The notes below the pieces were generated by a model that saw only the letters and a list, made by a program, of their open reading frames with translations, did not search any database and had not been told where the DNA came from. The position numbers and the translations under genes were made by a program. From Anaerolineales bacterium (GTDB taxonomy: Bacteria > Chloroflexota > Anaerolineae > Anaerolineales > UBA4823), in contig DAOTVW010000195.1 of assembly GCA_034436035.1 (NCBI GenBank), positions 1-53,854 on the forward strand: a DNA stretch of 53,854 nucleotides, written 5' to 3'. Positions 31,889 through 47,340 of the stretch are shown in pieces; the stretch's first letter is position 1; every line of letters starts with the position of its first letter.

Positions 31889-31999
31889 AGGATTTCGTTT
31901 TCCTTAGCGAAAAAATATTACCCTTTTGGGATGCTTTTTTTCAACCTATAAAATATAATATTTTTGTATCCCAGCATTGCATTGTGGATGCGCACAGCT

Positions 32000-33499: not shown

Positions 33500-33973
33500 A
33501 TGGCAAAGAAAAATACCTCTAAAAAATCTTCATCGAAACAGCATGTCCGCAAAGCAAAGCAATCCTCCCTGTTAACCTGGATTGTGTTGGGGGCACTGGC
33601 GGTTCTCGTCGTATTCGGTATTGTCCAGCAATTTTCTCACTCAACGGTGCGCAATATTACCGTGCCCGAAATTACTGCGCAAGAAGCCTACCAGAAATAT
33701 CAAGCAGGGGCATTAATCCTGGATGTACGCACCCCAGAAGAATGGGCGCAGGGTCATATTCCCAATGCAATCTTGATCCCATTGGATGAGCTGGAGAACC
33801 GATTGAATGAACTTCCTAAAGACCGGGAAATCGTGGTCATTTGTCACACCGGAAATCGCAGCCGCGAAGGCGCGGTGCTATTGTTAAAGGCTGGATTTAC
33901 CAAGGTCAGTACGGTCGTTGGCGGGATGAATAACTGGCAAGCAGCGGGATACCCGCTGGTGAATGGGGAATAG
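33500..33973 (+). CDS. Membrane-anchored single-domain rhodanese sulfurtransferase
   Basis: 157 aa. Lys-rich N-terminus, one TM helix, active-site loop CHTGNRS. SD GGGAGGGA upstream. Confidence 0.85.
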   Translation: MAKKNTSKKSSSKQHVRKAKQSSLLTWIVLGALAVLVVFGIVQQFSHSTVRNITVPEITAQEAYQKYQAGALILDVRTPEEWAQGHIPNAILIPLDELENRLNELPKDREIVVICHTGNRSREGAVLLLKAGFTKVSTVVGGMNNWQAAGYPLVNGE

Positions 33974-35416: not shown

Positions 35417-35830
35417 TCACGTGTGGATGATGATGTTGCCGTTGCTGGTGGTTTCGACGGATAAACGGTTGAGCGGTTTTTCTGCCGGACCATGCAAGAC
35501 TTTCCCGTTTTGATCAAATTTAGATCCATGGCAGGGACAGGCAAATTGGCTGTCTTGGGCTGCTACGGTGCAACCTAAATGAGTGCAGATCAGGCTTATG
35601 GCGATGAATCCATTCGCGGTGTGATAAAGCACAGCTGGAATATCGCTTAAAATAGTTCGTGAACCGATGGGGTAATTACTGGAGGGTCCGATATCAAAGT
35701 CGTGTTTAGAAGTTGCCGGTCCACTGTAATTCAGAAATCGAACAATCATACCCAAACCAAGCAATCCTGCAATGGAAAGGATCGCTTGAGAAATTAATCG
35801 TAGAAAATCACGTCGGGTAAGTTTATTCAT
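35417..35830 (-). CDS. Rieske [2Fe-2S] protein with Tat signal
   Basis: TRRDFLRL twin-arginine motif, and CTHLGC...CPCHGS cluster boxes. The ATG at 35830 lies 2 nt after the multihaem gene stop. Confidence 0.9.
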   Translation of the reverse strand: MNKLTRRDFLRLISQAILSIAGLLGLGMIVRFLNYSGPATSKHDFDIGPSSNYPIGSRTILSDIPAVLYHTANGFIAISLICTHLGCTVAAQDSQFACPCHGSKFDQNGKVLHGPAEKPLNRLSVETTSNGNIIIHT

Positions 35831-35832
35831 TG

Positions 35833-37119
35833 TTATCGTTTCACAGAATGACATTGGTGACAATAGTCAGAGGATTGATCCTGTCCACTTTGCGTGCAGC
35901 CGCTGCCCATGACCGGTTTGAATGTAAAATGGATTCCCGTTGCTTTTCCGATTAACTCGTAATTGCCATCTGGGAGTAGGCGTGTATTCCACAATGGTTC
36001 ACCTTTTTCGGTGATGATGATTGTATCTCCAATTTGAAGTTTGACGATTGGATTAACCAGCGCTAAGCGGAAAGCAATGTCATTCGGATCGGTAAGAGTT
36101 TTGGTCAATGGTAAAGTTGTAGGTGTGCCATGACAGGTGGAACAGCGGACATATTGGAATTCTTTCTGGTTTGGATGGAGGTCTCCGTCGCCCATGGCTT
36201 CGGTACGGGTATGGCAATCGATGCAGTCAAGTGTGTATTCGCATTGCGTGAATTGGGCAATGGGTTGGTAATAGTTATGCAAGCGGTCCATGGGATGATC
36301 GGTTCGTTCCTGAAAGGTCATACTGCGTAAGTCATAATTGCCGCGGTTGTGACAGGCATTACATTGTGTGTAGGGAATGGCGGTGGTGAGCTGGTGGACA
36401 AATTGACGGGGATTCTTTTCGTTGGTGAGGGTTGGCTGGTTGTGGCTGAGAGGAGTGTGGCAAGCGGCACAACCATTAAAGCGGGCATACGCTGCTCCCT
36501 CTGGGGCTTTGGACCACAAGTGACAGTTTAGGCAATTTTCGGCAAATTTCTGGATAGACGGATTACTATGATCGGCTTCTGAAAATGCCAGTAGAGATGT
36601 GATACCGGTTTTGGTGCTATTTTCGTCTTCGATGGTGGTGGTTGCGTAATGGGGAGTTAAATCTGCTTGAGCGCCGAAGGTGAACAGGACGCTGGTGATA
36701 GCGCCGGTATAGGTGGCTTGCAAGCTGGTTTTGACACGCTGGATATGATCACGCTGGTCAGCAGCACTGCCAGAATGACAGTTTTCTCCTCCGCAGGATT
36801 GTTCTACAACGGCTAAGTCCGAGGGATTATTGCCACCGCGCATGCTGGCGTGTGCTAGGTTCGCGTCCAATGCTAATCTTTCTCCGCCGTGGCAAATTAC
36901 ACAACCGAAGGTCTTTATGGGATGAGCAGGGCTAATTTCTGGCAAGTCAGCATGGCAGGTGAGACAATATTCGGTCTTGCCGGTCAGAGATGGGGTAAGG
37001 GCAATTGGGGTAGGCCGGCGGGATTCTTTCCACCAGCTGAGGGCTAAGGTGAGCAATAATAAACCACTCGCGGTTAGGATAAGGAAGTAGAAATTGGAAA
37101 TATTTGTTTTTCCCTTCAT
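35833..37119 (-). CDS. Membrane-anchored multihaem cytochrome c (8 CXXCH plus 1 CX4CH)
   Basis: 428 aa with an N-terminal TM helix. Motifs: CLTCH, CVICH, CGGENCH, CLNCH, CAACH, CNACH, CIDCH, CSTCH, CHQCH. Confidence 0.9.
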   Translation of the reverse strand: MKGKTNISNFYFLILTASGLLLLTLALSWWKESRRPTPIALTPSLTGKTEYCLTCHADLPEISPAHPIKTFGCVICHGGERLALDANLAHASMRGGNNPSDLAVVEQSCGGENCHSGSAADQRDHIQRVKTSLQATYTGAITSVLFTFGAQADLTPHYATTTIEDENSTKTGITSLLAFSEADHSNPSIQKFAENCLNCHLWSKAPEGAAYARFNGCAACHTPLSHNQPTLTNEKNPRQFVHQLTTAIPYTQCNACHNRGNYDLRSMTFQERTDHPMDRLHNYYQPIAQFTQCEYTLDCIDCHTRTEAMGDGDLHPNQKEFQYVRCSTCHGTPTTLPLTKTLTDPNDIAFRLALVNPIVKLQIGDTIIITEKGEPLWNTRLLPDGNYELIGKATGIHFTFKPVMGSGCTQSGQDQSSDYCHQCHSVKR

Positions 37120-38156
37120 GGTTTTGCTTTAGCGAGGAGGAATAACAGGGAAAGGGCTATCACCACGAAGCCAATCGTGGCAAGTAAAATCTGCGCGCCG
37201 CGGTTCGATTTGGGGAACCATCTTCCCAAATCCTGGACATTGGGTTGGGGGAAGATGTAGGGGATGCCGGTTATCAGTAATAGAAATAGCAAGGGAACGG
37301 TGATTCCCCATAAAAGAGGGTTGCCCCATTTGAGCATTTGCTGCACCCAGAGGAAGAACCAAGGCGCCTGCGCCTCTGCGTTTGGATTGGGTTTTCCAGT
37401 GATGGCTGGTGCAATCGGAGCGGGGAAAAACGTCGCTAATAAAATTAAGATACACCCGACTATCAACATTGCCAGCACTTCACGGCGCACCAACTCGAAG
37501 CGGTCGATGCGGGCAAGATCGGTTCGCAAAGAGGGAGGTGGAACAGCAATTCCTCCATCGCGGCGCACCCGAAAAATATGCCAGATGATTAGGATGATAA
37601 AGGCTAAACTTAAACCAAAGATATGCCAGGTGTAAAAACGCAGTAAGGCAGTAGCACAGGCTTGATCTCCGCCAATTGCTAATTTATAAAGAATATTACC
37701 AACCCAGGGGATGGTTTTAATCAGGTTGGTTCCGGTCAGTAGGGGCCAACAAATATCGATATCCCAGCGCAGAATATAGCCAGTGAAGTCAAAAAGGATA
37801 ACAAGGAGAAACAACCCCATCCCAAGCAGGTAATTGAAGCGGCGCGGTTTGGCATATGCCGCAGTAAATACGACGCGTACAAGATGTAAAACGCTGAATA
37901 AAACGAAGAGCTGAGCAGCCCAATAATGTAAGTTGCGGAGCAACCAGCCAAAGGGGACGTGATAGGTGATTGTTTGAACAGAAAGAGCAGCCTCTTCAGG
38001 GTTGGGGGCATAATAAAACATCTCCAAAATACCGGTGAAGCCCAATACGAGACTTAAGAAAACCGCGATTCCGCCTGCGCCTAAGGTATAACGCCAGCGT
38101 GCCTGAGCGGCCGGTATGGTGGGTGGATGTAGATGATGAAAAAAAGTAACCCGCAT
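37116..38156 (-). CDS. Cytochrome b of a Rieske/cyt b complex (b6-type His spacing, with an additional C-terminal membrane region, possibly subunit-IV-like)
   Basis: Helix B reads H-x13-H (HYWAAQLFVLFSVLH) and helix D reads H-x14-H (HIFGLSLAFIILIIWH). The stop overlaps the multihaem start (ATGA). The ATG at 38156 is preferred over the TTG at 38183, which sits inside a hairpin. Confidence 0.85.
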   Translation of the reverse strand: MRVTFFHHLHPPTIPAAQARWRYTLGAGGIAVFLSLVLGFTGILEMFYYAPNPEEAALSVQTITYHVPFGWLLRNLHYWAAQLFVLFSVLHLVRVVFTAAYAKPRRFNYLLGMGLFLLVILFDFTGYILRWDIDICWPLLTGTNLIKTIPWVGNILYKLAIGGDQACATALLRFYTWHIFGLSLAFIILIIWHIFRVRRDGGIAVPPPSLRTDLARIDRFELVRREVLAMLIVGCILILLATFFPAPIAPAITGKPNPNAEAQAPWFFLWVQQMLKWGNPLLWGITVPLLFLLLITGIPYIFPQPNVQDLGRWFPKSNRGAQILLATIGFVVIALSLLFLLAKAKP

Positions 38157-38170
38157 ACAAGGATTATAAT

Positions 38171-38202
38171 CAATCTCCCGCAAAACAGTTTGCGGGAGAT
38201 TG
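38171..38202 (-). promoter_or_regulatory. Perfect 14-bp stem/4-nt loop hairpin between the NrfD-type gene and cytochrome b
   Basis: CAATCTCCCGCAAA (38171-38184) pairs with TTTGCGGGAGATTG (38189-38202), loop ACAG. Confidence 0.6.
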
Positions 38203-38216
38203 TCATCTTGAGCATA

Positions 38217-39419
38217 TTAATCGCCGATTGAGGGTTCCATTACTTGGGATGGCGAAAATTTTTCTTCCGGTTTTTTCTCAACTCCCATTGTTTCAGAGAA
38301 AACGGGGAAGAAATGCGCCAATAAAGTATATACGAGCAATACACCTGAAAATACGCCGATAAGTAAAGATACTTCTATCCAAGAAGGAAAATAGGTCACT
38401 CCATTTAACGGTTTCAATGTAAACCAGCTGATGTCAAAGCGGTTTAATATCACGCCGATAGCTACGAAAGTGGCGGCGATTACAGAGCTTTGACGATTTG
38501 TGCGAACTTTTTTCATAGAAAAGAGAATTAACGGGATTATCACACCAATAACCATCTCTGTTAGATAAAGCACGCTGAAAATCCCGCTTGTAAATAAGAG
38601 ATTTAGCTCATGAGTGAATATCAATTCCCCAATTTTTATAATGAAGTAGAAACCAAGTAGCCAGGGCATTAATATCCCTAGTTTTTCGATGACTTTTTGG
38701 GGTAATGTTTTTCCATACATCCAGATACTTAAATAAGATCCGATGATGATGGTTGAGATACCGGCAAATAACGACGAGGTCAGGAAAAACTCCGGGGTCA
38801 AAATGCTGTACCATAATGGGTGAACCCGGGGTTTCATAATGACAAATAAAGCGCCCAGCGAAGATTGATGCATAGAGGAGAGAGTTATGCCGGCGATAAC
38901 AAATGGAATGGTTATTTTGGCAATAATGGAGAGCGCTTTTTGATTATTAAATCGTTCAAAAATAACTGGGCTAAATTCAAAGATCAGGATTGTGGTGTAA
39001 ATTGCTATGCACCAACTGACTTCGAAAAGGGCAGAGGTCAAATTTGGATATACTAAGAAATGCCAAAACCGATCAAAGCGTCCTAAATCAAAAAACAAAA
39101 TGACTAACACAGAAGAATAGCCCAGTAAACCAAACAAAACAGTTGGACGCATGGCTGCATGTAAATCGTGCTGATGAAAGATATAGACTAACGCTGCCAG
39201 TGTAAAAGCAGCCCCGGAAAATGCAACCATGGTGAGGTCAAAACTAATCCAGACACCCCAGGGGAAAACTGTGCTTAGATTGGTGGTTGCACCTAATCCC
39301 GCATACAACCGATATAGACCCGTGCTCATACCCAATGCGGTCAGAATGGCTAATATATAAGTAAATTTAGGTAATGAGCGAAGATCCTTTATTTCTTTAA
39401 TTTTTATTTGGATCGTCAT
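38217..39419 (-). CDS. NrfD/PsrC-type polytopic quinol-interacting membrane subunit
   Basis: 400 aa, multiple TM helices, the FPWGVWISFDL motif typical of NrfD-like proteins, and its position after the Mo and FeS subunits. Confidence 0.8.
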   Translation of the reverse strand: MTIQIKIKEIKDLRSLPKFTYILAILTALGMSTGLYRLYAGLGATTNLSTVFPWGVWISFDLTMVAFSGAAFTLAALVYIFHQHDLHAAMRPTVLFGLLGYSSVLVILFFDLGRFDRFWHFLVYPNLTSALFEVSWCIAIYTTILIFEFSPVIFERFNNQKALSIIAKITIPFVIAGITLSSMHQSSLGALFVIMKPRVHPLWYSILTPEFFLTSSLFAGISTIIIGSYLSIWMYGKTLPQKVIEKLGILMPWLLGFYFIIKIGELIFTHELNLLFTSGIFSVLYLTEMVIGVIIPLILFSMKKVRTNRQSSVIAATFVAIGVILNRFDISWFTLKPLNGVTYFPSWIEVSLLIGVFSGVLLVYTLLAHFFPVFSETMGVEKKPEEKFSPSQVMEPSIGD

Positions 39420-39422
39420 TAT

Positions 39423-40205
39423 CTACTCCTTCTCATGCGTAGATTCACTATGTTCGAGCTCTTCGATATGGTGAACTGGATTCTTCTTTTCAAGGTGTTC
39501 CAATGCAAGATAAATACCCGTCATTCCAGTCAATACACTACCAGCGATGATTGGTGTACCTTTTTCGGTAGTCATTCGATTGAATTCTGCTGGCGATTCG
39601 GTTAATTTTGTTGTAGGAAATCCGAGCTCTTCAAATGGAACCGGTGAAATATAAAAAGTGGAAGTGCCACCGTTTTCGTGTTCACCAAAAACATGGTTGA
39701 TATAACGGTTTGGTTCATTTTTTATTCGCTCATGGGCTAAGGCCAGCATATCATCCCGTTTTCCGAATTGGATGGCATCAGTTGGACAAGTGGCTGCACA
39801 AGCAGGTTCAGCTTGCCCTTCTTCCAAACGGTTTACACATAAATCACATTTATTGATTAAAGCAAGTTGCTTATCCCATTCAAAATGGGGGACTTCAAAT
39901 GGACACGCATACATACAATATCGGCAACCGATGCAGCGATCTTTATCGTAGGTGATAATACCATCTTTATTCATTTGAAGTGCACCTACGGTACAAGCAG
40001 ATACACAAGAGGGGTCGACACAGTGCATGCAGTGGTAAGGAGCAGTATAACGTTTAAGGTCGGGAAATTCACCTGTTACCCCGGTCTCTTTTATCCAAAT
40101 ACGCGTATGGGTCATCGGTACATTGTTTTCAGCACTACAAGCTACCAAACAAGCACGACAATCAATACAGCGCGAAGCGTCAATTAGAAATCCGTACTTA
40201 GCCAT
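39423..40205 (-). CDS. Four-cluster [4Fe-4S] ferredoxin subunit (PsrB/DmsB-type) with C-terminal TM helix
   Basis: CIDCRACLVAC, CMHCVDPSCVSAC, CIGCRYCMYAC and CDLCVNR...CAATC. Hydrophobic helix IIAGSVLTGMTGIYLAL near the C-terminus. Confidence 0.9.
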   Translation of the reverse strand: MAKYGFLIDASRCIDCRACLVACSAENNVPMTHTRIWIKETGVTGEFPDLKRYTAPYHCMHCVDPSCVSACTVGALQMNKDGIITYDKDRCIGCRYCMYACPFEVPHFEWDKQLALINKCDLCVNRLEEGQAEPACAATCPTDAIQFGKRDDMLALAHERIKNEPNRYINHVFGEHENGGTSTFYISPVPFEELGFPTTKLTESPAEFNRMTTEKGTPIIAGSVLTGMTGIYLALEHLEKKNPVHHIEELEHSESTHEKE

Positions 40206-40208
40206 AAT

Positions 40209-42434
40209 TTATTCTCCTAAATATAGCGGTTTGCGAGTTTTTTCTTGCGGCGCATCCGCTATCTTTGATACCGATACAAAAGTTTGGGTTAAAGCTTGAC
40301 TACCACTAACTGGGTCTGTATAAGAAACATGCAATACTGAATCGCTGGCACCTACTCCAAAAGCGGTCGTTAATCCTTTCGAGAGATGGCCATAGCCCGG
40401 AACGAGATATACACAATCCGGACGAATGGCTTCGGTTGCCAGCAAACGGATATGTACTTTTCCAACCTCGCTGGTCACTTCCACCCAATCCCCGTCTTTT
40501 AAACCTTGCTGGGCAGCAACTTTTGCGTTCATCCAAAGGCGTGGTTCGTCGGAGTACTTATGTAAGAGTTGATTGTTTTGGGTAGCAAATTGGGTTTGCT
40601 GGGCTACTTTGCCGGTGAGCAAATAGAATTGACCGGGAGCGGGTTGAGGGGGTTCCTCCCAGTTGGCACAGCCGGCAAAACCAGCCTTTTCTAAGCTATC
40701 CGAATAAAGCTCAATTTTTGTGCTGGCGGTATTCCACTTATACTCCGCACTTCCCTCATCGCCCTCCTCCGGCAGCTGGACATAGCCCTTAGCTTTGACT
40801 TCATCCAGACTCACGCCCAGTGGCGCCAGTTGTTGTTTGAGATAATCTTCTTCATCTTTATATTGGAAGTAATCCCCTAACCCTAACCGCTCGCCTAGAT
40901 TCTTGTAAATCCATAAAGCTGATTTGGCATCACCTTGCGGTTCGATGACGGGCTGGCGTAAAAAGGCTTTATCACCTACTGGCAGGAGTGGATCATATCG
41001 TTCTAAATAGCTGGCTTCGGGCAATACGACATCGGAGAACCAAGCGGTGTCATTGAGGAAAATGTCCACCGTGACAATGAAATCCATCTTACCAAAGGCT
41101 TCCAGCGTTTTATTGCGATCAGGCAGTGATAATATTGGATTTTGACGGGAGATAAACCAACCGTGAGGAGTATATGGATCTCCTTTCACAATGGCATCGC
41201 GCAGTTCCTGGAAGATACCGAGTTTCAATGGGACGAATGGGTATTTCCAAGGAACGCCATCAAGCCGCAGGGCGGAAACACGTGGGAAAGGTGGTTGGGG
41301 TGGAGCGCCCAGCGCGCCGCTTTCTTCGCCGCTTGAAGGGAACATGGTTGTACCCCAGTTACCCACGATGGCATTCAAGGCAGCAATGGCGCGTTCTGTA
41401 GCAAACGAGTTAACAAAATTGGAGGTTCGCCAGCCGTTGTGCGCTAAGGCATATTTACCTGCTGCCGCGAATTCACGGGCGATGCGGGTGATGGTATCAG
41501 CGGGGATACCGGTGATGGTAGAGGCCCATTCGGGAGGATATTTTTGAACTTCGCTTGCAAGTTTGTCGAAGCCAACTGTATATTGGTTTACAAAGTCCTG
41601 ATTGTAGAGGTTTTCAGAAATGATGACATGCAGCAGTGCTAAATGGAAGGCGAGATCGGTACCGGGTTTGATAGGCAGCCATTCCGTTGCTTTCGCAGCG
41701 GTCTTCGTGAAGCGGGGATCGAGATAAACCACTTTCACACCCCGATCAATGGCAAAGCTCAAGTCGTGGGTTTCAGAAGTGGAGATGGCTTCCATCAGGT
41801 TTCGCCCGGTAAGAATAATATATTTCACCTTATCATACGATCTTTCGGGTTCTTCCATGCCATACGTCATGATATTGGACACAATCATGGCATTGAAGCA
41901 GAGGGACCGCTGCGTGCCGTAATTCGGGGAGCCAAAAGCATAGAGCAGGTTTTCGAAAAGTGGTTGGCTGATATTATGGGTAGAGGAGAAAACCATTGCC
42001 TCTGGCCCATATTTTTGTTTGATGTCTAGCATCTTTTTTGACACCAAGTCAAGCGCCTCATCCCAGGTGGCTTTGCGGAACAAACCCTCGCCTCGTTTTC
42101 CCACACGGATCAGCGGTGTGAGAACCCGATCGGGATCATAGGTGTTCATCAAGCCAGATTGCCCGCGCGGACAAAGGTTGCCTTTTGAATGCGGGTGTTC
42201 CGGGTTACCATCCAATTTCACCACCCGACCGTTTTTTACTTTTGCAATTAAGCCGCAGCGCCAGACACACATTTCACACATGCTGGGGACAAATCCATCG
42301 CCCGCGGCATTGAGATAGCCCGATTGACGAGCTGCTTCGGCTACCATAGGAGGGAGCATTTGTCCTACCGCTAAAGCTGCTGTAAACGCTCCGCCTAATT
42401 TGAGAAATTCACGTCTTGATACAGTTGTTGTCAT
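40209..42434 (-). CDS. Tat-exported molybdopterin oxidoreductase catalytic subunit (DMSO-reductase family; PsrA/PhsA-like by size and context)
   Basis: SRREFLKLGG Tat motif. FS0 box CEMCVWRCG...C. About 740 aa. SD GGAGAG upstream of ATG 42434. Substrate cannot be assigned from the sequence alone. Confidence 0.85.
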   Translation of the reverse strand: MTTTVSRREFLKLGGAFTAALAVGQMLPPMVAEAARQSGYLNAAGDGFVPSMCEMCVWRCGLIAKVKNGRVVKLDGNPEHPHSKGNLCPRGQSGLMNTYDPDRVLTPLIRVGKRGEGLFRKATWDEALDLVSKKMLDIKQKYGPEAMVFSSTHNISQPLFENLLYAFGSPNYGTQRSLCFNAMIVSNIMTYGMEEPERSYDKVKYIILTGRNLMEAISTSETHDLSFAIDRGVKVVYLDPRFTKTAAKATEWLPIKPGTDLAFHLALLHVIISENLYNQDFVNQYTVGFDKLASEVQKYPPEWASTITGIPADTITRIAREFAAAGKYALAHNGWRTSNFVNSFATERAIAALNAIVGNWGTTMFPSSGEESGALGAPPQPPFPRVSALRLDGVPWKYPFVPLKLGIFQELRDAIVKGDPYTPHGWFISRQNPILSLPDRNKTLEAFGKMDFIVTVDIFLNDTAWFSDVVLPEASYLERYDPLLPVGDKAFLRQPVIEPQGDAKSALWIYKNLGERLGLGDYFQYKDEEDYLKQQLAPLGVSLDEVKAKGYVQLPEEGDEGSAEYKWNTASTKIELYSDSLEKAGFAGCANWEEPPQPAPGQFYLLTGKVAQQTQFATQNNQLLHKYSDEPRLWMNAKVAAQQGLKDGDWVEVTSEVGKVHIRLLATEAIRPDCVYLVPGYGHLSKGLTTAFGVGASDSVLHVSYTDPVSGSQALTQTFVSVSKIADAPQEKTRKPLYLGE

Positions 42435-42460
42435 ATTTCTCTCCACATCACACCATTGGT

Positions 42461-42519
42461 GTGGCTCATTCGAGTGGGCATTATCCACTCACAAATGAGC
42501 CACTTTTTATTTTATTTTT
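42461..42519 (+). terminator. Compound hairpin plus T tract, read as a plus-strand intrinsic terminator and so antisense to the surrounding operon
   Basis: The outer stem GTGGCTCATT (42461-42470) pairs with AATGAGCCAC (42494-42503). The inner stem is GAGTGG/CCACTC. TTTTTATTTTATTTTT follows on the plus strand. Confidence 0.45.
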
Positions 42520-43057
42520 CCTTGCGCTTTAATCCCGCTCGATCGATCAGATAGAACAAGAAGAGGGATATCAGCGCAAAGGTAAATACCGTTAAGTAAG
42601 GATTCAGATGCCAGAGATCTGGCAAAACTACATTTCCATAATTGGCGATCTTCGAGATGACCGGGAAGACCTGCTGATATGTCAAACCAAAAATCACTGC
42701 ACCGGTCAAGAAACCCAATAAACCAGGGATAAGATAATCAAGCTTTCCTTCGCCGGAACCGGCGACACAGGTGCCCGGGCAGTAACCGGTGAGTGCCATG
42801 CCAACGCCGAATATCAGCCCGCCGATCAAGTTGCCGGCGATATACGTAGCTGGTACGGTTGGGAAGGTGACCAGGCCAAGACCACGCAGGGTATAAAGGC
42901 CAGCCATGGAGACGACCAAAGCAGTCATCATGAATTGCAACACCGCCATATCAGTGAGACGAAAAACGTTGACAATTTTGTGATATTTGGTTAATCCGGC
43001 TTTGTTCAGCGAAAAGCCAAAGAACAAACCTAATAAAAGCATCATGATTGTGGACAT
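42512..43057 (-). CDS. YeeE/YedE-family sulfur-compound transport protein, half-size (second of pair)
   Basis: 181 aa, 4-5 TM helices, conserved Cys context LTGYCPGTCVAG. Confidence 0.8.
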   Translation of the reverse strand: MSTIMMLLLGLFFGFSLNKAGLTKYHKIVNVFRLTDMAVLQFMMTALVVSMAGLYTLRGLGLVTFPTVPATYIAGNLIGGLIFGVGMALTGYCPGTCVAGSGEGKLDYLIPGLLGFLTGAVIFGLTYQQVFPVISKIANYGNVVLPDLWHLNPYLTVFTFALISLFLFYLIDRAGLKRKEK

Positions 43058-43072
43058 CGTTTCTCCTTCTTG

Positions 43073-43618
43073 CTAAAAGCGATCGCGATAGATTACGAAA
43101 GCCGTGATAATACCGGAGATGAACATTCCGGCGATGAATAAGAACGCTGCCGGCGCCAGGAGCATACCGCCGGATATGGCTAATCCACTTGTGCAGCCAC
43201 CGGCAATCCCGGCCGCATATTCGAGGATGATGGCACCGATAAACCCGATTAGCCAGCGTTTCCAGGTTTGCGGTCCAAAGATTTGTTTCCATTGCGGGTC
43301 ACTGTTGGCGGCGTCTTTCTTGCCCCATTTGAGTGTTCCGCTTGTGGCTGCGCCAAGCATGCCGCCAAAGAAAACCCCCACCAGCAGGATGACATTGCTG
43401 GTGATGCCGGGCGGCATAATGAAATTGAAATACAGGTTGTCAAATAATTTCGGTGCAATGGCTTTTCCAATCAAGCCAGCCAGGTTCTCGAAAGCGCCGG
43501 AGGCTCCCAGTAGGCTATTGGTGAGCCACACTGCCAGGATACCAACGATGCCCAGCAGGATACCGGCGATATAAGGTGACCAGACTTCCTTGCGGATATA
43601 GTTCAAAATGAATTTCAT
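43073..43618 (-). CDS. YeeE/YedE-family sulfur-compound transport protein, half-size (first of pair)
   Basis: 181 aa, conserved Cys context IAGGCTSGLAISG. Confidence 0.8.
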   Translation of the reverse strand: MKFILNYIRKEVWSPYIAGILLGIVGILAVWLTNSLLGASGAFENLAGLIGKAIAPKLFDNLYFNFIMPPGITSNVILLVGVFFGGMLGAATSGTLKWGKKDAANSDPQWKQIFGPQTWKRWLIGFIGAIILEYAAGIAGGCTSGLAISGGMLLAPAAFLFIAGMFISGIITAFVIYRDRF

Positions 43619-43620
43619 GG

Positions 43621-44496
43621 CTATTCCTCTTTCTCTTCGGGGGATACAACTTCATCCAATAATTGGATTACTTTTTCAGCCTTCTTGGGATTGCTCAAGA
43701 TTTTCCGCAGCGTTTGGCGGGATTGCGGTTTGAGCTCGGTTAATTCAGGCAAAATATCCACCACGTCGGCAGGATATTCTCCTTCCACCGCTTTGGTGTC
43801 GCCAAATGAGATATTAATCCATTTCTCGTTGTGCAATACAAACACACCGCCGCCCACAAGGATTAAACCACTCAGCAATGCCAAAATAACATTTCCCCAG
43901 TTGACCGGTTTCTGGCCCAGGACGATTTCATTGTAGCGTTTGGTGTAATCCACTAAATTCGGGTCGTCGACCGCGATTGCAGGACTGGCAGGCTCATTAG
44001 CAACAGTTTGTGGGGCTGCTTGTCCGCTTGAGGTGCTTGCTGAAGGAGCACCTTCTGCTGGCGCTGCGGGTGCAGCGGTTGTTCCCGATGCAGCCGGCGC
44101 AGCGGGGGCGGCACCGCTTCCAATTTCGACGCCTAATTTGGTGGCATAGACCTGCGCACGTGCTTCTAAATCGTTGGGATGGCAGGATTGGCAGGAAGCT
44201 TTGATATCCGAGAGGGGCGGCACCATGCCATTATGGGCAGCGGTTTTATCGGTTGCTTGCTGATTGCCGCCGTGACAGATATAGCAAAAATCCCCAAATG
44301 CATGTGAAGTATGCCATGGGGTGCCATCGTTGTTGACCGGTTTCTGGCCCTGTACTTCGTGACAGTTCTTGCAGGAGGAAGCCTGAGAACCGCACTGCGC
44401 ATTGGCTGGAGGCGCCGTTCCCAGCCACAACGCGCTGGCAAGCACAAGCACCAGCCCGGCGAAGAGAAGGGAGATGATGGTGTTTTTCTGGATCAT
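43621..44496 (-). CDS. Trihaem cytochrome c with Ala/Pro-rich linker, C-terminal TM helix and charged tail
   Basis: Signal/anchor sequence, then CKNCH, CYICH and CQSCH. A low-complexity AAPAAPAASGTTAAPAAPAEGAP linker follows. TM helix VILALLSGLILVGGGVFVL. The tail ends EEKEE. Confidence 0.85.
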   Translation of the reverse strand: MIQKNTIISLLFAGLVLVLASALWLGTAPPANAQCGSQASSCKNCHEVQGQKPVNNDGTPWHTSHAFGDFCYICHGGNQQATDKTAAHNGMVPPLSDIKASCQSCHPNDLEARAQVYATKLGVEIGSGAAPAAPAASGTTAAPAAPAEGAPSASTSSGQAAPQTVANEPASPAIAVDDPNLVDYTKRYNEIVLGQKPVNWGNVILALLSGLILVGGGVFVLHNEKWINISFGDTKAVEGEYPADVVDILPELTELKPQSRQTLRKILSNPKKAEKVIQLLDEVVSPEEKEE

Positions 44497-44522
44497 TTCT
44501 TTCCTCGTAAGAGATATAGGAT

Positions 44523-44897
44523 TTAGATACCGACCTCGGTGACTAAACTGGCTCGTTGTACCAGACGGTCGCGCATAACAGCTCGAAGTAAGTCGAGGGC
44601 TTCGATCAAACGGTGATCGGTCAGGCAGTAAAGCATGGTGGTGCCTTGCCGTTCCGCTTTGACTAACCCACGATCCCGTAAAATTTTTAAATGGCGAGAA
44701 ATAGTGGGTTGGTTGACGTTTAAATCCGCGGCAAGTTCGTTGACCATGCGCGGTTTTTCATCTAATTCATAGAGGATCAAGATTCGGGTGGGATCCGAAA
44801 ATGCTGAACATAATTCAGCTTCCATCATGCAGATTTCTTGGCTAAGGTTAGGAGAGAGAGGATTGTTTTCCATTTTCTTATATTCGAATAAACGCAT
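44523..44897 (-). CDS. ArsR/SmtB-family transcriptional regulator
   Basis: 124 aa. SDPTRILILYEL...VNELAADLNVNQPTISRHLKILRDRGLV winged-HTH. No ELCVCDL-type metal site. Confidence 0.9.
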   Translation of the reverse strand: MRLFEYKKMENNPLSPNLSQEICMMEAELCSAFSDPTRILILYELDEKPRMVNELAADLNVNQPTISRHLKILRDRGLVKAERQGTTMLYCLTDHRLIEALDLLRAVMRDRLVQRASLVTEVGI

Positions 44898-45015
44898 AAA
44901 TGAATATATTTATCTATATCATATTCTGAGCAGGGTAATTCTTATAGTGAAATATGTCACAACCTGTCATGTGATTCGTCACATTTAGGTGACAGAGTAC
45001 ACAAGTGGAAAATTA

Positions 45016-45051
45016 AAAAGCCTTATTGAAAATAACTTCAATAAGGCTTTT
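45016..45051 (-). terminator. Bidirectional rho-independent terminator (15-bp stem) after the small membrane-protein gene
   Basis: AAAAGCCTTATTGAA (45016-45030) pairs with TTCAATAAGGCTTTT (45037-45051). T tracts lie on both strands. Confidence 0.65.
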
Positions 45052-45555: not shown

Positions 45556-47340
45556 CTAAGTGCTTGCCTTGAGTAAATGTTGTAATAGTGCTTGAGCTGC
45601 TTCTTCAGGCCCTTTGCGTTCCCAGCCGGTTAATCCGAGACGGGTGCGCAACTGACCGACAAAGATGTTCTGTTGAAAAAAAGCCTGAAAGTATAGTTCC
45701 GCCAGCCGGTCATGGAGTTGACGATATTGTGGTGGGCCAAAAATATTAGTGAAGTAAGTTTGGACTAGTCCTGTGGAGGTGGTTGTGCCTTTGCTCATGG
45801 CAATGCCGCGGCGGAAGACGTCCACTGCCATTTCTGGTGTGGTAAATTGTTCGATGATGGGATGTTCATCATCCACTTGTTCGTAATTGTTTGCATAAAA
45901 AACCATATCGATGGGAATGCCTTGGACAATATTGCTATAAGATGTGACGGGTAAGACCACGCGTGCGTTCACTTGGCCAGGATTCATAATGATGGTGCGA
46001 TCGAGGTGTCCAAAGGCATAACCAGGATGCAAGTCATCTAAGCGCACAAATGCCCCCACCTCTGTCCCATAGCCGAGGATACGATTCTGCGCGGTGATAC
46101 GAAGCGAGCCCATGTCATCGGCGATGATCACCATTTGACGGATATATTCCTCCCCAATCGCTCGAAATGCTTCCAGAGTTTCAGATTTACCTGTACCGGT
46201 ATCTCCCATAATTAAAATTGTGGGTTCGCTACCATTTTTAAGCAGAAATCGCACCATCGCACCATGATAGGGAAAGTTACCGCGCTGCATCATGACGACG
46301 TTATGAAGGGTAAGCGTCATCTTTTTTAAGTACCCAAAGTAGCCATATTCTTTGCGGCGGGGGATCATCCCTACCAAGAGACCTTGTGAAAGGTCTTCAT
46401 AGAACTGGGTAGCGAACGCAGCGTTAGGGTCAAGGCATTCCTCATTTACTCCAAAGAGGAAAATTGCATCCGCTTTGCGATTCAGGACCTCATCTTCTGC
46501 CAGTTCGAATAGATTGCTCAGTGCAAAACCCAATTCATAGAATTCTTCATGAAAATAAATCAAGATCAAAAGTGTGCCAACTTTGGCTGGATAACAAAGC
46601 CATTGGTTTGGGTCTACTTGTAAATCATCTAAAGGATTGTGCTGGACGCGCACGAATTGACCGGTGCGTTTGTTCGTGGGTGGTTGGATGAGCAGAGGTG
46701 GATACATCAACACCTGGCGGATAATGCCGATACCATCCAGTTTATGGCAGCACTCACTTGGCTGAGGAATCAGCTTGGGCAATGCAATGACAGCAACCTC
46801 TGCACCAGCAGTCACCTGGCGGTAAATTTGGGGATGCCGCCCGCTGATGTTCTCCTGCACGTCGCGATATACACTGCGTACAAGGTGGGTGAGGGTTTCA
46901 ATCGTTTCGTTAAACGTGCGGTAAGGGCGCTTATCCAGCGCGTCGCCTTCTGAATCGCACACAATAAAACGTTCAAATTCCCGCCAGTAATCATAGAGCT
47001 GTTCAACGAAATTGGAGAGGATATCCGGCTGGCGGACAAAGCGATGGTCTTCTTCAACCAAGCGGGTGACATAATCCAATGGCATTTTTGCCAACAATTG
47101 TAAGACATGAGTGAGTTGATCGAGATCGCTTTCTGATACCGTTTGTCCTGCTGGCAATTCGAATATGGATAAGAGTGGGGAATCTTTCCGTAAGAGCTCC
47201 TGGACAAAGTGGCGCAGCACTTCGCGGAATAGCTCGCTGGCAAAAAGCTCATCTGCTGTTTCGCAAACGCGATTGCGAATGCGCAGGATAACCTGATGCC
47301 CAACGAACTTAAATTGCATAGGGGAATTGGGTGAAATCAT
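45556..47340 (-). CDS. Protein of unknown function with C-terminal HPr-kinase/PEPCK-like P-loop kinase core
   Basis: 594 aa. ILIMGDTGTGKSETLEAF...VIIADDMGSL closely resembles the HprK core (GDSGVGKSE...LVADD) as I recall it. The N-terminal region of about 350 aa has no motif I recognise. Confidence 0.55.
   Translation of the reverse strand: MISPNSPMQFKFVGHQVILRIRNRVCETADELFASELFREVLRHFVQELLRKDSPLLSIFELPAGQTVSESDLDQLTHVLQLLAKMPLDYVTRLVEEDHRFVRQPDILSNFVEQLYDYWREFERFIVCDSEGDALDKRPYRTFNETIETLTHLVRSVYRDVQENISGRHPQIYRQVTAGAEVAVIALPKLIPQPSECCHKLDGIGIIRQVLMYPPLLIQPPTNKRTGQFVRVQHNPLDDLQVDPNQWLCYPAKVGTLLILIYFHEEFYELGFALSNLFELAEDEVLNRKADAIFLFGVNEECLDPNAAFATQFYEDLSQGLLVGMIPRRKEYGYFGYLKKMTLTLHNVVMMQRGNFPYHGAMVRFLLKNGSEPTILIMGDTGTGKSETLEAFRAIGEEYIRQMVIIADDMGSLRITAQNRILGYGTEVGAFVRLDDLHPGYAFGHLDRTIIMNPGQVNARVVLPVTSYSNIVQGIPIDMVFYANNYEQVDDEHPIIEQFTTPEMAVDVFRRGIAMSKGTTTSTGLVQTYFTNIFGPPQYRQLHDRLAELYFQAFFQQNIFVGQLRTRLGLTGWERKGPEEAAQALLQHLLKAST

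What the first reader, a model, noticed from the sequence alone, without database searches (positions are those of the whole stretch)
35417..44897. Ten-gene minus-strand array joining a Psr/Phs-type molybdoenzyme, a Rieske/cytochrome b complex, multihaem cytochromes and split YeeE transporters behind an ArsR regulator
Ten co-oriented genes are packed with gaps of -4 to 77 nt. In order they are: an ArsR-family regulator, a trihaem c, YeeE half 1, YeeE half 2, a Tat-exported molybdopterin subunit, a 4x[4Fe-4S] subunit with a TM tail, an NrfD-type subunit, cytochrome b, a cytochrome c with 8 CXXCH plus one CX4CH, and a Tat Rieske protein. Psr/Phs/Ttr/Arr-type enzymes normally carry their own quinone-interacting subunit (NrfD/PsrC). 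A Rieske/cyt b complex is a second, independent quinol oxidoreductase. Two quinone modules plus about 12 c-type haems in one array is not a textbook arrangement and suggests a dedicated electron-transfer chain or supercomplex. One possible route runs from substrate to Mo enzyme to quinone pool to bc complex to multihaem c, or the reverse. Another speculative idea is that bc-type bifurcated quinol oxidation assists the energetically difficult menaquinol-to-thiosulfate/polysulfide step. The YeeE/YedE pair and the regulator point to a sulfur (or selenium) oxyanion or polysulfide substrate. The substrate cannot be read from the sequence, and I cannot tell whether this arrangement has already been described.
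Basis: partly seen in the sequence, partly recalled or inferred. Interest (0 to 1): 0.75.

Follow-up and report, generated by a model that had tools for sequence, protein, structure and literature searches.

The report
Sulfur molybdoenzyme with its own bc-complex
A group of common but poorly understood filamentous bacteria (Anaerolineae) keeps a polysulfide/thiosulfate-reductase-type molybdenum enzyme next to a private cytochrome bc-type complex and many-haem cytochromes, a respiratory layout I found described nowhere and whose substrate and direction are still unknown.

Summary
The window comes from an Anaerolineae (Chloroflexota) genome. The linkage is not a chance juxtaposition. In 46 species-level genomes with enough flank, 31 have cyt b, a nine-haem cytochrome and Rieske directly after the NrfD gene, and one has them after a 5-kb insertion. 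In the reverse test, 48 of 49 metagenome contigs anchored on this cyt b carry the Mo–FeS–NrfD genes upstream. One relative also has a second cyt b gene nearby.

Three refinements:
- The array is probably two or three transcription units. A conserved hairpin and a -10 box about 6 nt before the cyt b ATG suggest a separate, leaderless cyt b unit.
- The membrane subunit is HybB/HmcC/ActC-class, not PsrC-type.
- The invariant core is trihaem c, two YeeE halves and Mo–FeS–NrfD. Some lineages lack cyt b but keep the nine-haem cytochrome with a soluble Rieske protein.

Neighbouring rhodanese, TusA and FmdE genes point to sulfane sulfur or thiosulfate chemistry. The most likely mechanism is two quinone modules in series through menaquinone. 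Direction and substrate are unproven. Closest precedents are haloarchaeal Nar with NarBC, Geobacter Ext, and Hmc/Dsr/ACIII. I rate it a new variant of a known kind.

The parts
45016..45051 (-). Strong terminator-like hairpin (16-bp stem, T-rich tail) ending the upstream gene. It marks the 5' boundary of the island.
   Evidence: sequence
44523..44897 (-). ArsR/SmtB-family regulator. The start is probably at Met9 (44873), since relatives are 109-111 aa. It has a single invariant Cys (Cys30 of the ORF).
   Evidence: Pfam HTH_5 9e-18; NCBIfam HTH_metalloreg above cutoff, TsoR and BigR below cutoff; conservation; on the same strand directly upstream in 50 of 66 relatives
43621..44496 (-). Membrane-tethered trihaem cytochrome c. 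Layout: signal/anchor, 3 CXXCH, about 60 aa of Ala/Pro-rich disordered linker, a TM helix, then a small cytoplasmic helical domain. Cys35, His62, His65, His88 and Met91 are conserved.
   Evidence: present in 66 of 66 relatives with enough upstream flank; sources call it 'hypothetical protein' and it has no Pfam domain
43073..43618 (-). YeeE/YedE-type half-transporter a (matches the C-terminal half of the Sulf_transp profile). Cys142 is invariant.
   Evidence: 66/66
42512..43057 (-). YeeE/YedE-type half-transporter b (N-terminal half of the Sulf_transp profile, plus DUF6691). Cys93 is invariant.
   Evidence: 66/66
42435..42511 (-). Structured intercistronic spacer: an imperfect hairpin of about 17 bp with no U-tract, followed by the GGAGAG Shine-Dalgarno motif of the Mo subunit.
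   Evidence: -27.5 kcal/mol, z -5.0; a stem of at least 8 bp occurs in only 21 of 81 relatives, and the SD is kept in 90 of 93
40209..42434 (-). Tat-exported Mo/W-bisPGD catalytic subunit of the PsrA/PhsA/SrrA lineage. It has the FS0 cluster motif and the Mo-ligand Cys.
   Evidence: Pfam; NCBIfam PhsA 591.6 bits, below the 694 cutoff; T. thermophilus PsrA 2VPW 458 bits full length, with the SLC motif aligned; 72-94% identical in 80 Anaerolineae species
39423..40205 (-). Four-[4Fe-4S] subunit without a signal peptide of its own (Tat hitch-hiker), with a weakly hydrophobic C-terminal segment. It is FdnH/HybA/HmcB-like.
38217..39419 (-). NrfD-family membrane subunit of the large (about 10 TMH) HybB/HmcC/ActC class.
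   Evidence: Pfam NrfD; NCBIfam HybB 252 bits and HmcC 235 bits, both below cutoff; no PDB hit as a single sequence; the profile hits only ACIII ActC, 6F0K_C, 3e-8; hydropathy
38171..38202 (-). 14-bp GC-rich hairpin between NrfD and cyt b. A hairpin at this position is conserved across relatives and is often terminator-like.
   Evidence: z -7.6; 53 of 70 unique spacers have an uninterrupted stem of at least 8 bp
38163..38168 (-). TATAAT -10-like box 6 nt upstream of the cyt b ATG (38156). It suggests a separate promoter and a leaderless cyt b-MHC-Rieske mRNA.
   Evidence: TAnAAT ends 5-9 nt before the start in 37 of 106 unique cyt b junctions and in 0 for the nine other genes. An SD-like motif occurs in only 11 of 74.
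37116..38156 (-). Cytochrome b, a fused b6 + subunit-IV type with 7 TMH. The four haem-ligand His are invariant, there is no haem-ci Cys, the Qo motif is APWF, and an N-terminal FFHHLHPP motif is conserved.
   Evidence: (ExtP 202 bits, ExtQ 43 bits, both below cutoff)
35833..37119 (-). N-terminally anchored nine-haem cytochrome c (8 CXXCH + CX4CH; relatives have CXXCH at that position). It is distantly ExtM-like.
35417..35830 (-). Tat/TM-anchored bc-type Rieske protein with CTHLGC and CPCHGS-K-F boxes, all conserved.
33500..33973 (+). Membrane-anchored single-domain rhodanese (active-site loop CHTGNRS), convergent to the island and probably facing outward. A rhodanese recurs near the island in relatives.
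   Evidence: a rhodanese lies within +/-10 kb in 16 of 49 species loci

Best explanation
This is a conserved respiratory island specific to the class Anaerolineae.

Its invariant core is an outward-facing PsrA/PhsA/SrrA-type molybdoenzyme. It is wired through a four-cluster FeS protein to a large HybB/HmcC/ActC-class NrfD quinone subunit. With it come a flexibly tethered trihaem cytochrome, a split YeeE-type sulfur-compound transporter and an ArsR-type regulator. Next to it, as a separate and probably leaderless transcription unit, lies a dedicated Rieske/cytochrome b complex whose 'c1' subunit is a membrane-anchored nine-haem cytochrome.

Most likely the two quinone modules work in series through the menaquinone pool:
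1. The Mo module oxidises a low-potential sulfur species (sulfide, polysulfide-type sulfane sulfur or thiosulfate, possibly handed over by an outward-facing rhodanese).
2. It reduces menaquinone at NrfD.
3. The private Rieske/cyt b complex reoxidises the menaquinol by a Q cycle.
4. The electrons pass through the nine-haem and trihaem cytochromes to a terminal acceptor encoded elsewhere.

What is shown: the gene identities, the cofactor-binding motifs, the two-way conserved linkage, the separate promoter signals and the sulfur-trafficking neighbours. What is inferred: physical or functional coupling, series operation, the substrate, and the oxidative direction.
For: Domain and motif evidence:
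-. The Mo-ligand Cys, four FeS cluster motifs, four b-haem His, the Qo motif, the Rieske boxes and 3 + 9 haem-c sites are all intact and conserved.

Linkage:
- MoA to cyt b. Of 46 species loci with at least 7 kb downstream, 31 have cyt b-MHC-Rieske directly after NrfD, and 1 more has it after a 5-kb insertion.
- Cyt b to MoA. Of 49 metagenome loci with enough upstream sequence, 40 have NrfD immediately upstream and 8 have Mo-FeS-NrfD 1-7 kb upstream. Three further look-ups agree.
- The cyt b is not the only one in the genome: L087 has a second cyt b gene (cyt c-cyt b fusion) 9 kb away.

Class of the B and C subunits:
- They resemble HybA/HybB, HmcB/HmcC and ActC. By established knowledge, Hyd-2, Hmc and Qrc carry electrons from outward-facing donors to menaquinone.
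- The Wolinella Psr reaction is reversible (sulfide oxidation with dimethylnaphthoquinone; my recollection of the Kroeger-lab literature, not checked here).

Sulfur context:
- An outward-facing rhodanese in the window.
- Rhodanese in 16, TusA in 5 and FmdE in 21 of 49 species loci.
- TusA with FlpD/HdrA-like genes, and DsrE, as neighbours.
- YeeE halves with invariant Cys.
- The closest genome hit is a sulfidic-cave Anaerolinea MAG.

Fit with series operation:
- A quinone reductase plus a quinol oxidase explains why two quinone modules co-occur.
- It also explains how cyt b can be lost in some lineages and why it has its own promoter.
Against: - There is no experimental or transcript evidence.
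- All characterised PsrA/PhsA/SrrA members act physiologically as reductases, and the lineage mixes polysulfide, thiosulfate, selenite and S0 specificities (PMC10100899). Neither substrate nor direction can be read from sequence.
- No terminal reductase or oxidase is encoded in the island.
- Multihaem cytochromes are usually low-potential, which fits awkwardly downstream of a Rieske centre.
- In the cyt b-less variants a nine-haem cytochrome and a soluble Rieske protein persist beside the Mo genes. This hints at a direct periplasmic haem/Rieske-to-Mo connection rather than coupling only through the quinone pool.
- Metagenome surveys have annotated these genes simply as thiosulfate reductase PhsABC (PMC9040765).
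Confidence: 0.4

Rival explanations
1. Reductive, pNar-like chain. Menaquinol is oxidised by the dedicated Rieske/cyt b complex (Q cycle, 4 H+ per 2 e-). Electrons then run Rieske, nine-haem c, tethered trihaem c, FeS, Mo, where a relatively high-potential chalcogen compound (selenite, tellurite, tetrathionate) is reduced outside the cell. NrfD would be a lower-yield alternative entry or a structural or proton-conducting subunit.
For: - Precedent: haloarchaeal outward-facing NarGH is encoded with its own Rieske/cyt b (narBC), and nitrate reduction there is antimycin-sensitive (as cited in PMC4683180).
- The cyt b and MHC are most similar to Geobacter ExtP/ExtQ/ExtM, whose cluster also has a rhodanese (ExtH) and is implicated in selenite/tellurite reduction (PMC5877670).
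- SrrA selenite reductase belongs to the same Mo lineage (PMC10100899).
- A Shewanella Psr homologue takes part in tetrathionate respiration (PMC12949373; title and abstract only).
- The trihaem c, with its 60-aa disordered tether, looks like a mobile shuttle, by analogy with Rhodobacter cytochrome c_y (my own knowledge).
- MHC and Rieske stay with the Mo genes even where cyt b is absent.
- YedE/YeeE relatives are also linked to selenium (NCBIfam hits).
Against: - It leaves the fully conserved NrfD subunit, with many invariant polar residues, without a clear role.
- It is thermodynamically impossible for polysulfide or thiosulfate, because bc-type Rieske centres lie at or above about +100 mV (established knowledge).
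- The island is widespread in ordinary sediments, sludge and sulfidic habitats where selenite and tetrathionate are scarce.
- All Ext family scores are far below the curated cutoffs.
Confidence: 0.25
2. Co-localised but functionally independent modules. The Rieske/cyt b-nine-haem unit is a general menaquinol:cytochrome c oxidoreductase of these bacteria. It is kept next to the Psr/Phs-type reductase only by shared ancestry or co-regulation in a 'respiratory island', with no specific electron-transfer relationship.
For: - Separate promoter and terminator signals between the units.
- Insertions of 1-7 kb are tolerated between them.
- 12-14 of 46 species keep the Mo module without cyt b.
Against: - This cyt b orthogroup (at least 64% identity) was found beside the Mo module in 48 of 49 informative metagenome contigs and never demonstrably alone.
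- A second cyt b exists in at least one genome.
- FmdE and MobA, which are Mo-enzyme-associated genes, sit in or after the MHC-Rieske unit.
- Synteny persists across orders, Anaerolineales and Aggregatilineales.
Confidence: 0.15
3. Bifurcating or quinone-cycling supercomplex. Qo-site oxidation of menaquinol sends one electron up the Rieske/MHC branch and uses the low-potential electron (haem bL) to drive the otherwise endergonic reduction of thiosulfate or polysulfide at the Mo site.
For: - Two quinone-reactive modules plus Mo in a conserved neighbourhood.
- Thiosulfate reduction by menaquinol is known to need energy input (established knowledge for Salmonella Phs).
- Non-canonical Rieske/cyt b complexes with extra redox subunits have been proposed to bifurcate in anammox bacteria (my own knowledge).
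Against: - There is no route evident in the sequences from haem bL to the outward-facing FeS chain.
- The high-potential branch would still need an oxidant.
- Cyt b is dispensable in a quarter of the species.
- The transcription units are separate.
Confidence: 0.06

Closest known systems
PsrABC polysulfide reductase (Thermus thermophilus 2VPW; Wolinella succinogenes) and PhsABC thiosulfate reductase
   Same: The catalytic subunit is a full-length homologue with a Tat signal, the FS0 cluster and a Cys ligand to Mo (458 bits to 2VPW_A; PhsA HMM 591 bits). It has a four-cluster B subunit and an NrfD-family membrane subunit. An outward-facing rhodanese nearby recalls Sud of Wolinella.
   Different: - It scores below the PhsA equivalog cutoff.
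- The B subunit has an FdnH/HybA-like C-terminal extension.
- The C subunit has about 10 TMH and is HybB/HmcC/ActC-class. It shows no detectable sequence match to PsrC in the PDB.
- It always comes with a trihaem c and split YeeE genes, and usually with a Rieske/cyt b-nine-haem unit.
Haloarchaeal outward-facing nitrate reductase cluster with narB (Rieske) and narC (cytochrome b)
   Same: A Tat-exported DMSO-reductase-family enzyme encoded together with its own Rieske/cyt b module. This is the only published design of this kind that I found (cited in PMC4683180).
   Different: - The Mo family is different (NarG type II rather than the Psr lineage).
- There is no NrfD subunit and no multihaem cytochrome of this kind.
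- The acceptor (nitrate) is high-potential.
- It is archaeal.
Geobacter sulfurreducens extHIJKLMNOPQS cluster (ExtO Rieske, ExtP/ExtQ cytochrome b, ExtM/ExtN multihaem c, ExtH rhodanese)
   Same: The best NCBIfam matches of the cyt b (ExtP, ExtQ) and of the nine-haem cytochrome (ExtM). It shares the combination of Rieske/cyt b, multihaem c and a rhodanese, and a chalcogen (selenite/tellurite) connection.
   Different: - All scores are far below the curated cutoffs (202/290, 43/150, 144/800).
- Here b6 and subunit IV are fused, and the cytochrome has 9 haems rather than 12.
- There is no porin, which is consistent with the conventional monoderm view of Chloroflexota (my assumption, not tested).
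- Geobacter has no Mo enzyme in the cluster.
NrfD + FeS + multihaem-c membrane complexes: Hmc/Nhc, DsrMKJOP, Qrc, Alternative Complex III
   Same: - The B and C subunits score best against HmcB/HybA and HybB/HmcC.
- The only PDB relative of C is ActC of ACIII.
- The trihaem c + FeS + NrfD trio recalls DsrJOP.
- Hmc and Dsr also combine an NrfD-type subunit with a b-type cytochrome membrane subunit.
   Different: - Here the Mo subunit keeps its active-site Cys and cofactor domains, whereas ActB and QrcB are inactive relics.
- The second membrane module is a bc-type cyt b with Rieske, not a NarI-type cyt b.
- There is no cytoplasmic HdrD-like subunit.
- There is only one NrfD subunit.
Non-canonical Rieske/cyt b complexes with multihaem subunits (Methanoperedens, anammox bacteria)
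   Same: A Rieske/cyt b core whose c-type partner is a multihaem cytochrome encoded in the same cluster.
   Different: Those clusters are not adjacent to a Psr-type molybdoenzyme or to an NrfD module.

Membership tests
PsrA/PhsA/SrrA lineage of the DMSO-reductase (MopB) superfamily | Twin-arginine signal, N-terminal FS0 [4Fe-4S] motif, molybdopterin and MGD-binding domains | tested here: met
   Pfam TAT_signal (E 5e-4, 20.4 bits against a 22.7 cutoff; SRREFLK motif present), Molybdop_Fe4S4, Molybdopterin, Molydop_binding; sequence
PsrA/PhsA/SrrA lineage of the DMSO-reductase (MopB) superfamily | Cys ligand to Mo at the position of T. thermophilus PsrA Cys173 | tested here: met
   The 'rSLCfna' segment aligns with 'vSLCtap' of 2VPW_A in a full-length alignment of 458 bits. 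The residue number comes from my memory of the structure paper.
PsrA/PhsA/SrrA lineage of the DMSO-reductase (MopB) superfamily | Placement inside the clade in a curated tree with characterised PsrA, PhsA, SrrA, aSreA, TtrA and ArrA | not tested
   No characterised reference sequences other than 2VPW were available. By score, PhsA (591 bits) is far above DmsA (262), ArrA (160) and TtrA (85).
Thiosulfate reductase PhsA (NCBIfam PRK15488 equivalog) | Score at or above the curated cutoff of 694 bits | tested here: not met
   591.6 bits in two stretches
PsrC-type (8-TMH) membrane anchor | Sequence relatedness to PsrC; about 250 aa and 8 TMH | tested here: not met
   400 aa with 9-10 hydrophobic segments. 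No PDB hit for the single sequence. The profile hits only ActC 6F0K_C, although 2VPW is in the library. The best NCBIfam matches are HybB and HmcC.
Rieske/cytochrome b (bc1/b6f-type) complex | Cytochrome b with two His pairs for haems bL and bH, and a Qo-site PEWY-type motif | tested here: met
   H86, H100, H187 and H202 are invariant in 108 sequences. The APWFFLW motif is invariant. It aligns to cyt b6 7R0W.
Rieske/cytochrome b (bc1/b6f-type) complex | Rieske protein with CxHxGC and CxCH boxes (ligands plus disulfide) and a Tat/TM anchor | tested here: met
   CTHLGC and CPCHGS are conserved at 99% or more. The RRDFL motif and a TM helix at residues 23-41 are present.
Rieske/cytochrome b (bc1/b6f-type) complex | Assembly into one complex with quinol:cytochrome c oxidoreductase activity | not testable with these tools
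   Needs biochemistry
b6f / Firmicute-type cytochrome b6 with haem ci | Conserved Cys (b6 Cys35) that binds haem ci covalently | tested here: not met
   That position is Ser in the alignment to cyt b6
Geobacter Ext selenite/tellurite cluster proteins (ExtM, ExtP, ExtQ equivalogs) | Scores at or above the NCBIfam cutoffs (800, 290, 150) | tested here: not met
   144, 202 and 43 bits
Alternative Complex III | ActB fusion that lacks the Mo cofactor ligand, two NrfD subunits (ActC, ActF), pentahaem ActA and monohaem ActE | tested here: not met
   A and B are separate, and A keeps the Cys ligand. There is a single NrfD gene, with tri- and nine-haem cytochromes.
YeeE/TsuA thiosulfate transporter | Full-length protein of about 330-350 aa scoring above the TsuA cutoffs | tested here: not met
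   Two 181-aa halves; TsuA scores of 34 and 22 bits against cutoffs of 400 and 645. Both halves pass the Pfam Sulf_transp cutoff, and each keeps one invariant Cys.
Two-Cys persulfide-sensing ArsR regulators (BigR/SqrR type) | Two conserved Cys; BigR equivalog score of at least 155 | tested here: not met
   Only one invariant Cys; BigR 45 bits and TsoR 59.6 bits, both below cutoff

The most novel reading that the evidence does not exclude
The Mo-FeS-NrfD module and the Rieske/cyt b-nine-haem module assemble into one supercomplex that cycles menaquinone locally. Either it is a self-contained redox-loop proton pump driven by sulfur-compound oxidation, or Qo-site bifurcation supplies low-potential electrons for thiosulfate/polysulfide reduction at the Mo site. 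This would be a type of energy-converting machine not yet described. It might also be a living intermediate between Psr-type molybdoenzymes and Alternative Complex III.
Probability: 0.1. Interest if true: 0.85.

Novelty: new variant of a known kind. Interest (0 to 1): 0.6.

Why it matters
Anaerolineae are among the most abundant bacteria in wastewater sludge, sediments and sulfidic habitats, and their respiration is largely inferred from generic annotation. These genes are currently read simply as 'thiosulfate/polysulfide reductase'.

A conserved, dedicated bc-type complex attached to that enzyme means the pathway is probably energy-conserving, and possibly oxidative rather than reductive. That would change how these organisms are placed in sulfur-cycle (or selenium-cycle) budgets.

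For bioenergetics it gives a second, bacterial example of a molybdoenzyme with a private Rieske/cyt b module, after haloarchaeal Nar. It also gives a natural series of variants (with cyt b; without cyt b but with a soluble Rieske protein; with neither) for testing how NrfD-type and bc-type quinone modules cooperate.

Tried and rejected
- **Chance juxtaposition with a housekeeping bc complex.** Rejected by the two-way synteny and by a second cyt b gene in L087.
- **Single ten-gene operon.** Judged unlikely because of the hairpin, the missing SD and the -10 box at the cyt b junction.
- **Known RNA element in the spacers, such as a Moco riboswitch.** No Rfam match at E <= 1.
- **Structure of the trihaem cytochrome.** The AlphaFold model has mean pLDDT 50.5, with the haem domain below 50. 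Only the TM helices, the disordered linker and a C-terminal helical bundle are informative, so I ran no fold search.
- **PDB search with the NrfD subunit.** The single sequence found nothing. A profile of 8 orthologues was needed.
- **Curated DMSO-reductase-family tree.** Not possible, because characterised reference sequences were not obtainable with the tools. The literature says the PsrA/PhsA/SrrA lineage is functionally mixed anyway.
- **Literature.** Seven full-text searches found no description of this Anaerolineae arrangement. A search for 'TsoR' explained nothing. One search failed on syntax.
- **ArsR as a BigR/SqrR-type two-Cys persulfide sensor.** Not supported, since only one Cys is invariant.

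Full report
**Observation**

The region 35417-44897 holds ten co-oriented minus-strand ORFs.

- an ArsR/SmtB regulator
- a cytochrome c with three CXXCH motifs
- two 181-aa Sulf_transp (YeeE/YedE) halves
- a Tat molybdopterin oxidoreductase
- a four-cluster ferredoxin-like subunit
- an NrfD protein
- a cytochrome b
- a cytochrome c with eight CXXCH plus one CX4CH
- a Rieske protein (motif counts)

After refining starts from ribosome-binding sites and homologue lengths, the gaps are 26, 2, 15, 77, 3, 3, 60, -4 and 2 nt. The refined starts are MoA ATG 42434, cyt b ATG 38156 and Rieske ATG 35830. The two longer spacers each fold into a hairpin far more stable than shuffled controls (z -7.6 and -5.0).

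A 16-bp terminator-like hairpin at 45016-45051 closes the upstream gene. A convergent gene closes the other end. The rest of the window encodes housekeeping, sugar-utilisation and transport functions and no other respiratory enzymes.

**Source organism and distribution**

The Mo subunit has more than 100 database relatives at 77-99% identity. Where they are named, they come from Anaerolineales/Chloroflexota MAGs. A scan of one genome per GTDB species found 207 relatives. The best 80 (72-94% identity) are all Anaerolineae-class MAGs apart from one labelled Bacteroidota. The closest comes from a sulfidic-cave Anaerolinea.

**Is the linkage conserved?**

I searched every fetched locus with the ten window proteins.

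Upstream of the Mo gene:

- The trihaem cytochrome and both YeeE halves are present in 66 of 66 loci with enough flank.
- The ArsR gene is present in 50 of 66.

Downstream, among 46 species loci with at least 7 kb:

- 31 have cyt b, the multihaem cytochrome (MHC) and Rieske directly after NrfD on the same strand.
- One has them after a 5-kb insertion of PadR, NifX-like, MinD-like and radical-SAM genes.
- Two have only the MHC.
- About nine, mostly Aggregatilineales, lack cyt b. They carry nearby a separate operon: ArsR, a nine-haem cytochrome (41-44% identical), a Rieske protein that seems to lack a membrane anchor, FmdE and sometimes MobA.
- Three have none of these.

I ran the reverse test on 80 metagenome contigs anchored on the cyt b (at least 64% identity). 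Of 49 with at least 1.3 kb upstream, 40 have NrfD immediately upstream. Eight have Mo-FeS-NrfD 1-7 kb upstream. One shows nothing within its 2.3 kb. Three look-ups of individual cyt b proteins on long contigs gave the same picture. One of those contigs carries a second cytochrome b gene (a cyt c-cyt b fusion) 9 kb away.

So this cyt b orthogroup is dedicated to the island, while the Mo core can exist without it.

**Transcription units**

Across unique junctions, the NrfD-cyt b spacer has a median length of 100 nt. It contains an uninterrupted stem of at least 8 bp in 53 of 70 cases (median 12 bp). Many of these stems have the AAAACCGC...GCGGTTTT form of intrinsic terminators. The comparison figures are 21 of 81 for the YeeE-MoA spacer and 11 of 53 for ArsR-trihaem c.

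The cyt b start has a Shine-Dalgarno-like motif in only 11 of 74 junctions, against more than 90% for the trihaem c, YeeE and MoA genes. A TAnAAT box ends 5-9 nt (mode 6) before the cyt b ATG in 37 of 106 unique junctions. It never does so before any of the other nine genes. The window itself has TATAAT, then 6 nt, then the ATG.

I therefore read cyt b-MHC-Rieske as a separate, probably leaderless, transcription unit that is kept next to the Mo unit. The YeeE-MoA hairpin has no U-tract, and MoA keeps its Shine-Dalgarno motif. That hairpin is more likely an intra-operon stability or processing element. No Rfam family matches either spacer.

**Anatomy of the parts**

*Mo subunit.* It aligns over its full length with T. 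thermophilus PsrA (2VPW, 458 bits), and the Mo-ligand Cys is conserved. It scores 591.6 bits on the Salmonella-type PhsA model, below the 694 cutoff, and far lower on DmsA, ArrA and TtrA.

*FeS subunit.* It has four cluster motifs, no signal peptide and a C-terminal extension. It resembles PsrB/FdnH in the PDB and HmcB/HybA in NCBIfam.

*Membrane subunit.* It is not PsrC-like. It has 400 aa and about ten hydrophobic segments. Its best NCBIfam matches are HybB and HmcC. As a single sequence it has no PDB match. A profile of eight orthologues matches only ActC of Alternative Complex III (6F0K_C, 3e-8).

*Cytochrome b.* It is a fused b6 + subunit-IV type with seven helices. The four haem-ligand His are invariant. 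There is no haem-ci Cys. The Qo motif APWF is invariant. An unexplained N-terminal FFHHLHPP motif is conserved.

*Rieske protein.* It has canonical bc-type boxes, CTHLGC and CPCHGS-K-F.

*MHC.* It is N-terminally anchored. In relatives, the CX4CH site of the window protein is an ordinary CXXCH, so this is a nine-haem protein. It is distantly ExtM-like.

*Trihaem cytochrome.* It has a signal/anchor, three haem motifs with three conserved candidate distal His plus a conserved Cys35 and Met91, a roughly 60-residue disordered Ala/Pro linker, a TM helix and a small cytoplasmic helical domain. This looks like a tethered electron shuttle.

**Context**

- A membrane-anchored, probably outward-facing rhodanese lies 1.4 kb beyond the Rieske gene in the window.
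- Among 49 species loci of at least 15 kb, a rhodanese occurs in 16, FmdE in 21, an XRE/cupin regulator in 19, MobA in 10 and TusA in 5.
- FlpD/HdrA-like and DsrE genes also appear nearby.

This points to sulfane sulfur or thiosulfate chemistry. It does not exclude selenium.

**Mechanism**

Shown:

- Two intact quinone-reactive modules.
- An intact outward-facing Mo site.
- About twelve haems c on the outer face.
- A dedicated, two-way conserved association.

Inferred: how the parts cooperate.

The most economical reading is series operation through menaquinone, with one module reducing it and the other oxidising it. It accounts for three observations:

- both modules are kept;
- cyt b can be lost, since another quinol oxidase could substitute;
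- cyt b has its own promoter.

Three arguments favour sulfur-compound oxidation at Mo, menaquinone reduction at NrfD, and reoxidation by the private bc complex with electron output through the cytochromes. All three rest on my own knowledge rather than on a test made here:

- The B and C subunits are of the Hyb/Hmc/Qrc/ActC class, which in characterised systems links outward-facing donors with menaquinone.
- The Psr reaction is reversible.
- A bc-type Rieske centre (+100 mV or higher) cannot donate to polysulfide (-260 mV) or thiosulfate (-400 mV).

I give this reading 0.4.

The main rival (0.25) is a reductive chain built like haloarchaeal Nar-NarBC (PMC4683180). Electrons would run Rieske/cyt b, MHC, tethered trihaem c, FeS, Mo. 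This requires a high-potential acceptor such as selenite, tellurite or tetrathionate. Three points support it:

- the Ext-like affinities of cyt b and MHC (PMC5877670);
- SrrA belonging to the same Mo lineage (PMC10100899);
- the persistence of MHC and Rieske next to Mo genes that lack cyt b.

Mere co-localisation (0.15) and Qo-site bifurcation (0.06) remain possible.

**Comparison with the literature**

The combination of a Mo enzyme with its own Rieske/cyt b genes is published for haloarchaeal nitrate reductase. Rieske/cyt b complexes with multihaem partners are known in Geobacter, Methanoperedens and anammox bacteria. NrfD + FeS + multihaem c modules are known as Hmc, Dsr, Qrc and ACIII.

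I found no paper describing a Psr-lineage enzyme that keeps an NrfD subunit and is tied to a dedicated bc-type complex, in Anaerolineae or elsewhere. A metagenome survey annotates these genes simply as PhsABC (PMC9040765). The library does not cover subscription journals, so prior description cannot be excluded.

**Verdict**

- Novelty: a new variant of a known kind.
- Interest: about 0.6.

Noticed in passing
L025:14270-17165, L041:5165-7778 (also L021, L029, L035, L042, L057, L065, L067, L068, L079): A cyt b-less variant of the island. Beside the same ArsR-trihaem-YeeE-Mo-FeS-NrfD genes sits a separate operon: ArsR, a nine-haem cytochrome (9 CXXCH, 41-44% identical), a Rieske protein without an obvious membrane anchor (one copy lacks a disulfide Cys), FdhE-unrelated FmdE, and sometimes MobA. 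A Rieske protein with a multihaem partner but no cytochrome b is unusual.
   Followed up: partly
All loci L004-L083 (table): The Mo subunit stays 72-94% identical to the window protein across species. The FeS and NrfD subunits fall into two identity classes (about 50-57% / 37-42% versus 63-91% / 53-82%), and this split does not track cyt b presence. It suggests two B/C lineages, or module replacement under a constant A subunit.
   Followed up: no
window 43621-44496 (residues 33-46 of the trihaem cytochrome): An invariant 'AQCGSQASSCKNCH' segment. The extra Cys35 lies right after the predicted signal peptide and 7 residues before the first haem motif. It could be a lipidation site or a His/Cys-type axial ligand, as in sulfur-converting cytochromes. 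Every database source calls the protein hypothetical, and it has no Pfam domain.
   Followed up: partly
window 38100-38156 (cyt b residues 4-12 counted from the ATG): A conserved His-rich N-terminal motif, FFHHLHPP (three His at 94-97% conservation), lies before the first helix on the cytoplasmic side. In b6-type proteins this is where haem ci sits. Its function is unknown.
   Followed up: no
L087:17388-19029: About 9 kb downstream of the island in one relative there are YwiC and DsrE genes and the start of a second cytochrome b gene fused to a c-type cytochrome domain (587 aa). This may be the organism's general bc-type complex.
   Followed up: no
L001/L010:14257-18813: A 5-kb insertion between NrfD and cyt b encodes PadR, two NifX/NifB-like (Nitro_FeMo-Co) proteins, two MinD/CbiA-type ATPases with ferredoxin domains, an FeS-assembly-P protein and a radical-SAM enzyme. 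The same gene set lies on the other side of the island in L002.
   Followed up: no
NrfD-cyt b spacers of L002, L017, L098, L110, L119, L050: Several species carry tandem heptanucleotide repeats in this spacer (GTTACGR runs upstream, ACCAATT/ACTGATT-like runs downstream of the hairpin), and many spacers end in a C-run just before the ATG.
   Followed up: no
window 44898-45015: The promoter region of the ArsR gene contains several GTGAC/GTCAC half-sites (CTGTCAC...GTGACG...TCACATGACAG...GTGACA) and an AT-rich near-palindrome. These are candidate operator sites.
   Followed up: no
window 31964-33412 (+) and 45556-47340 (-): Two genes flank the island. One is an MttB-superfamily methyltransferase, next to the rhodanese side. 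The other is a 594-aa ORF with no Pfam match, on the ArsR side.
   Followed up: no
window 1219-2658, 3292-4677, 6402-7703: An IstB/DnaA-like AAA ATPase, a DnaB helicase and an N6/N4 DNA methylase cluster at the start of the window. This could be a mobile or phage-derived segment.
   Followed up: no
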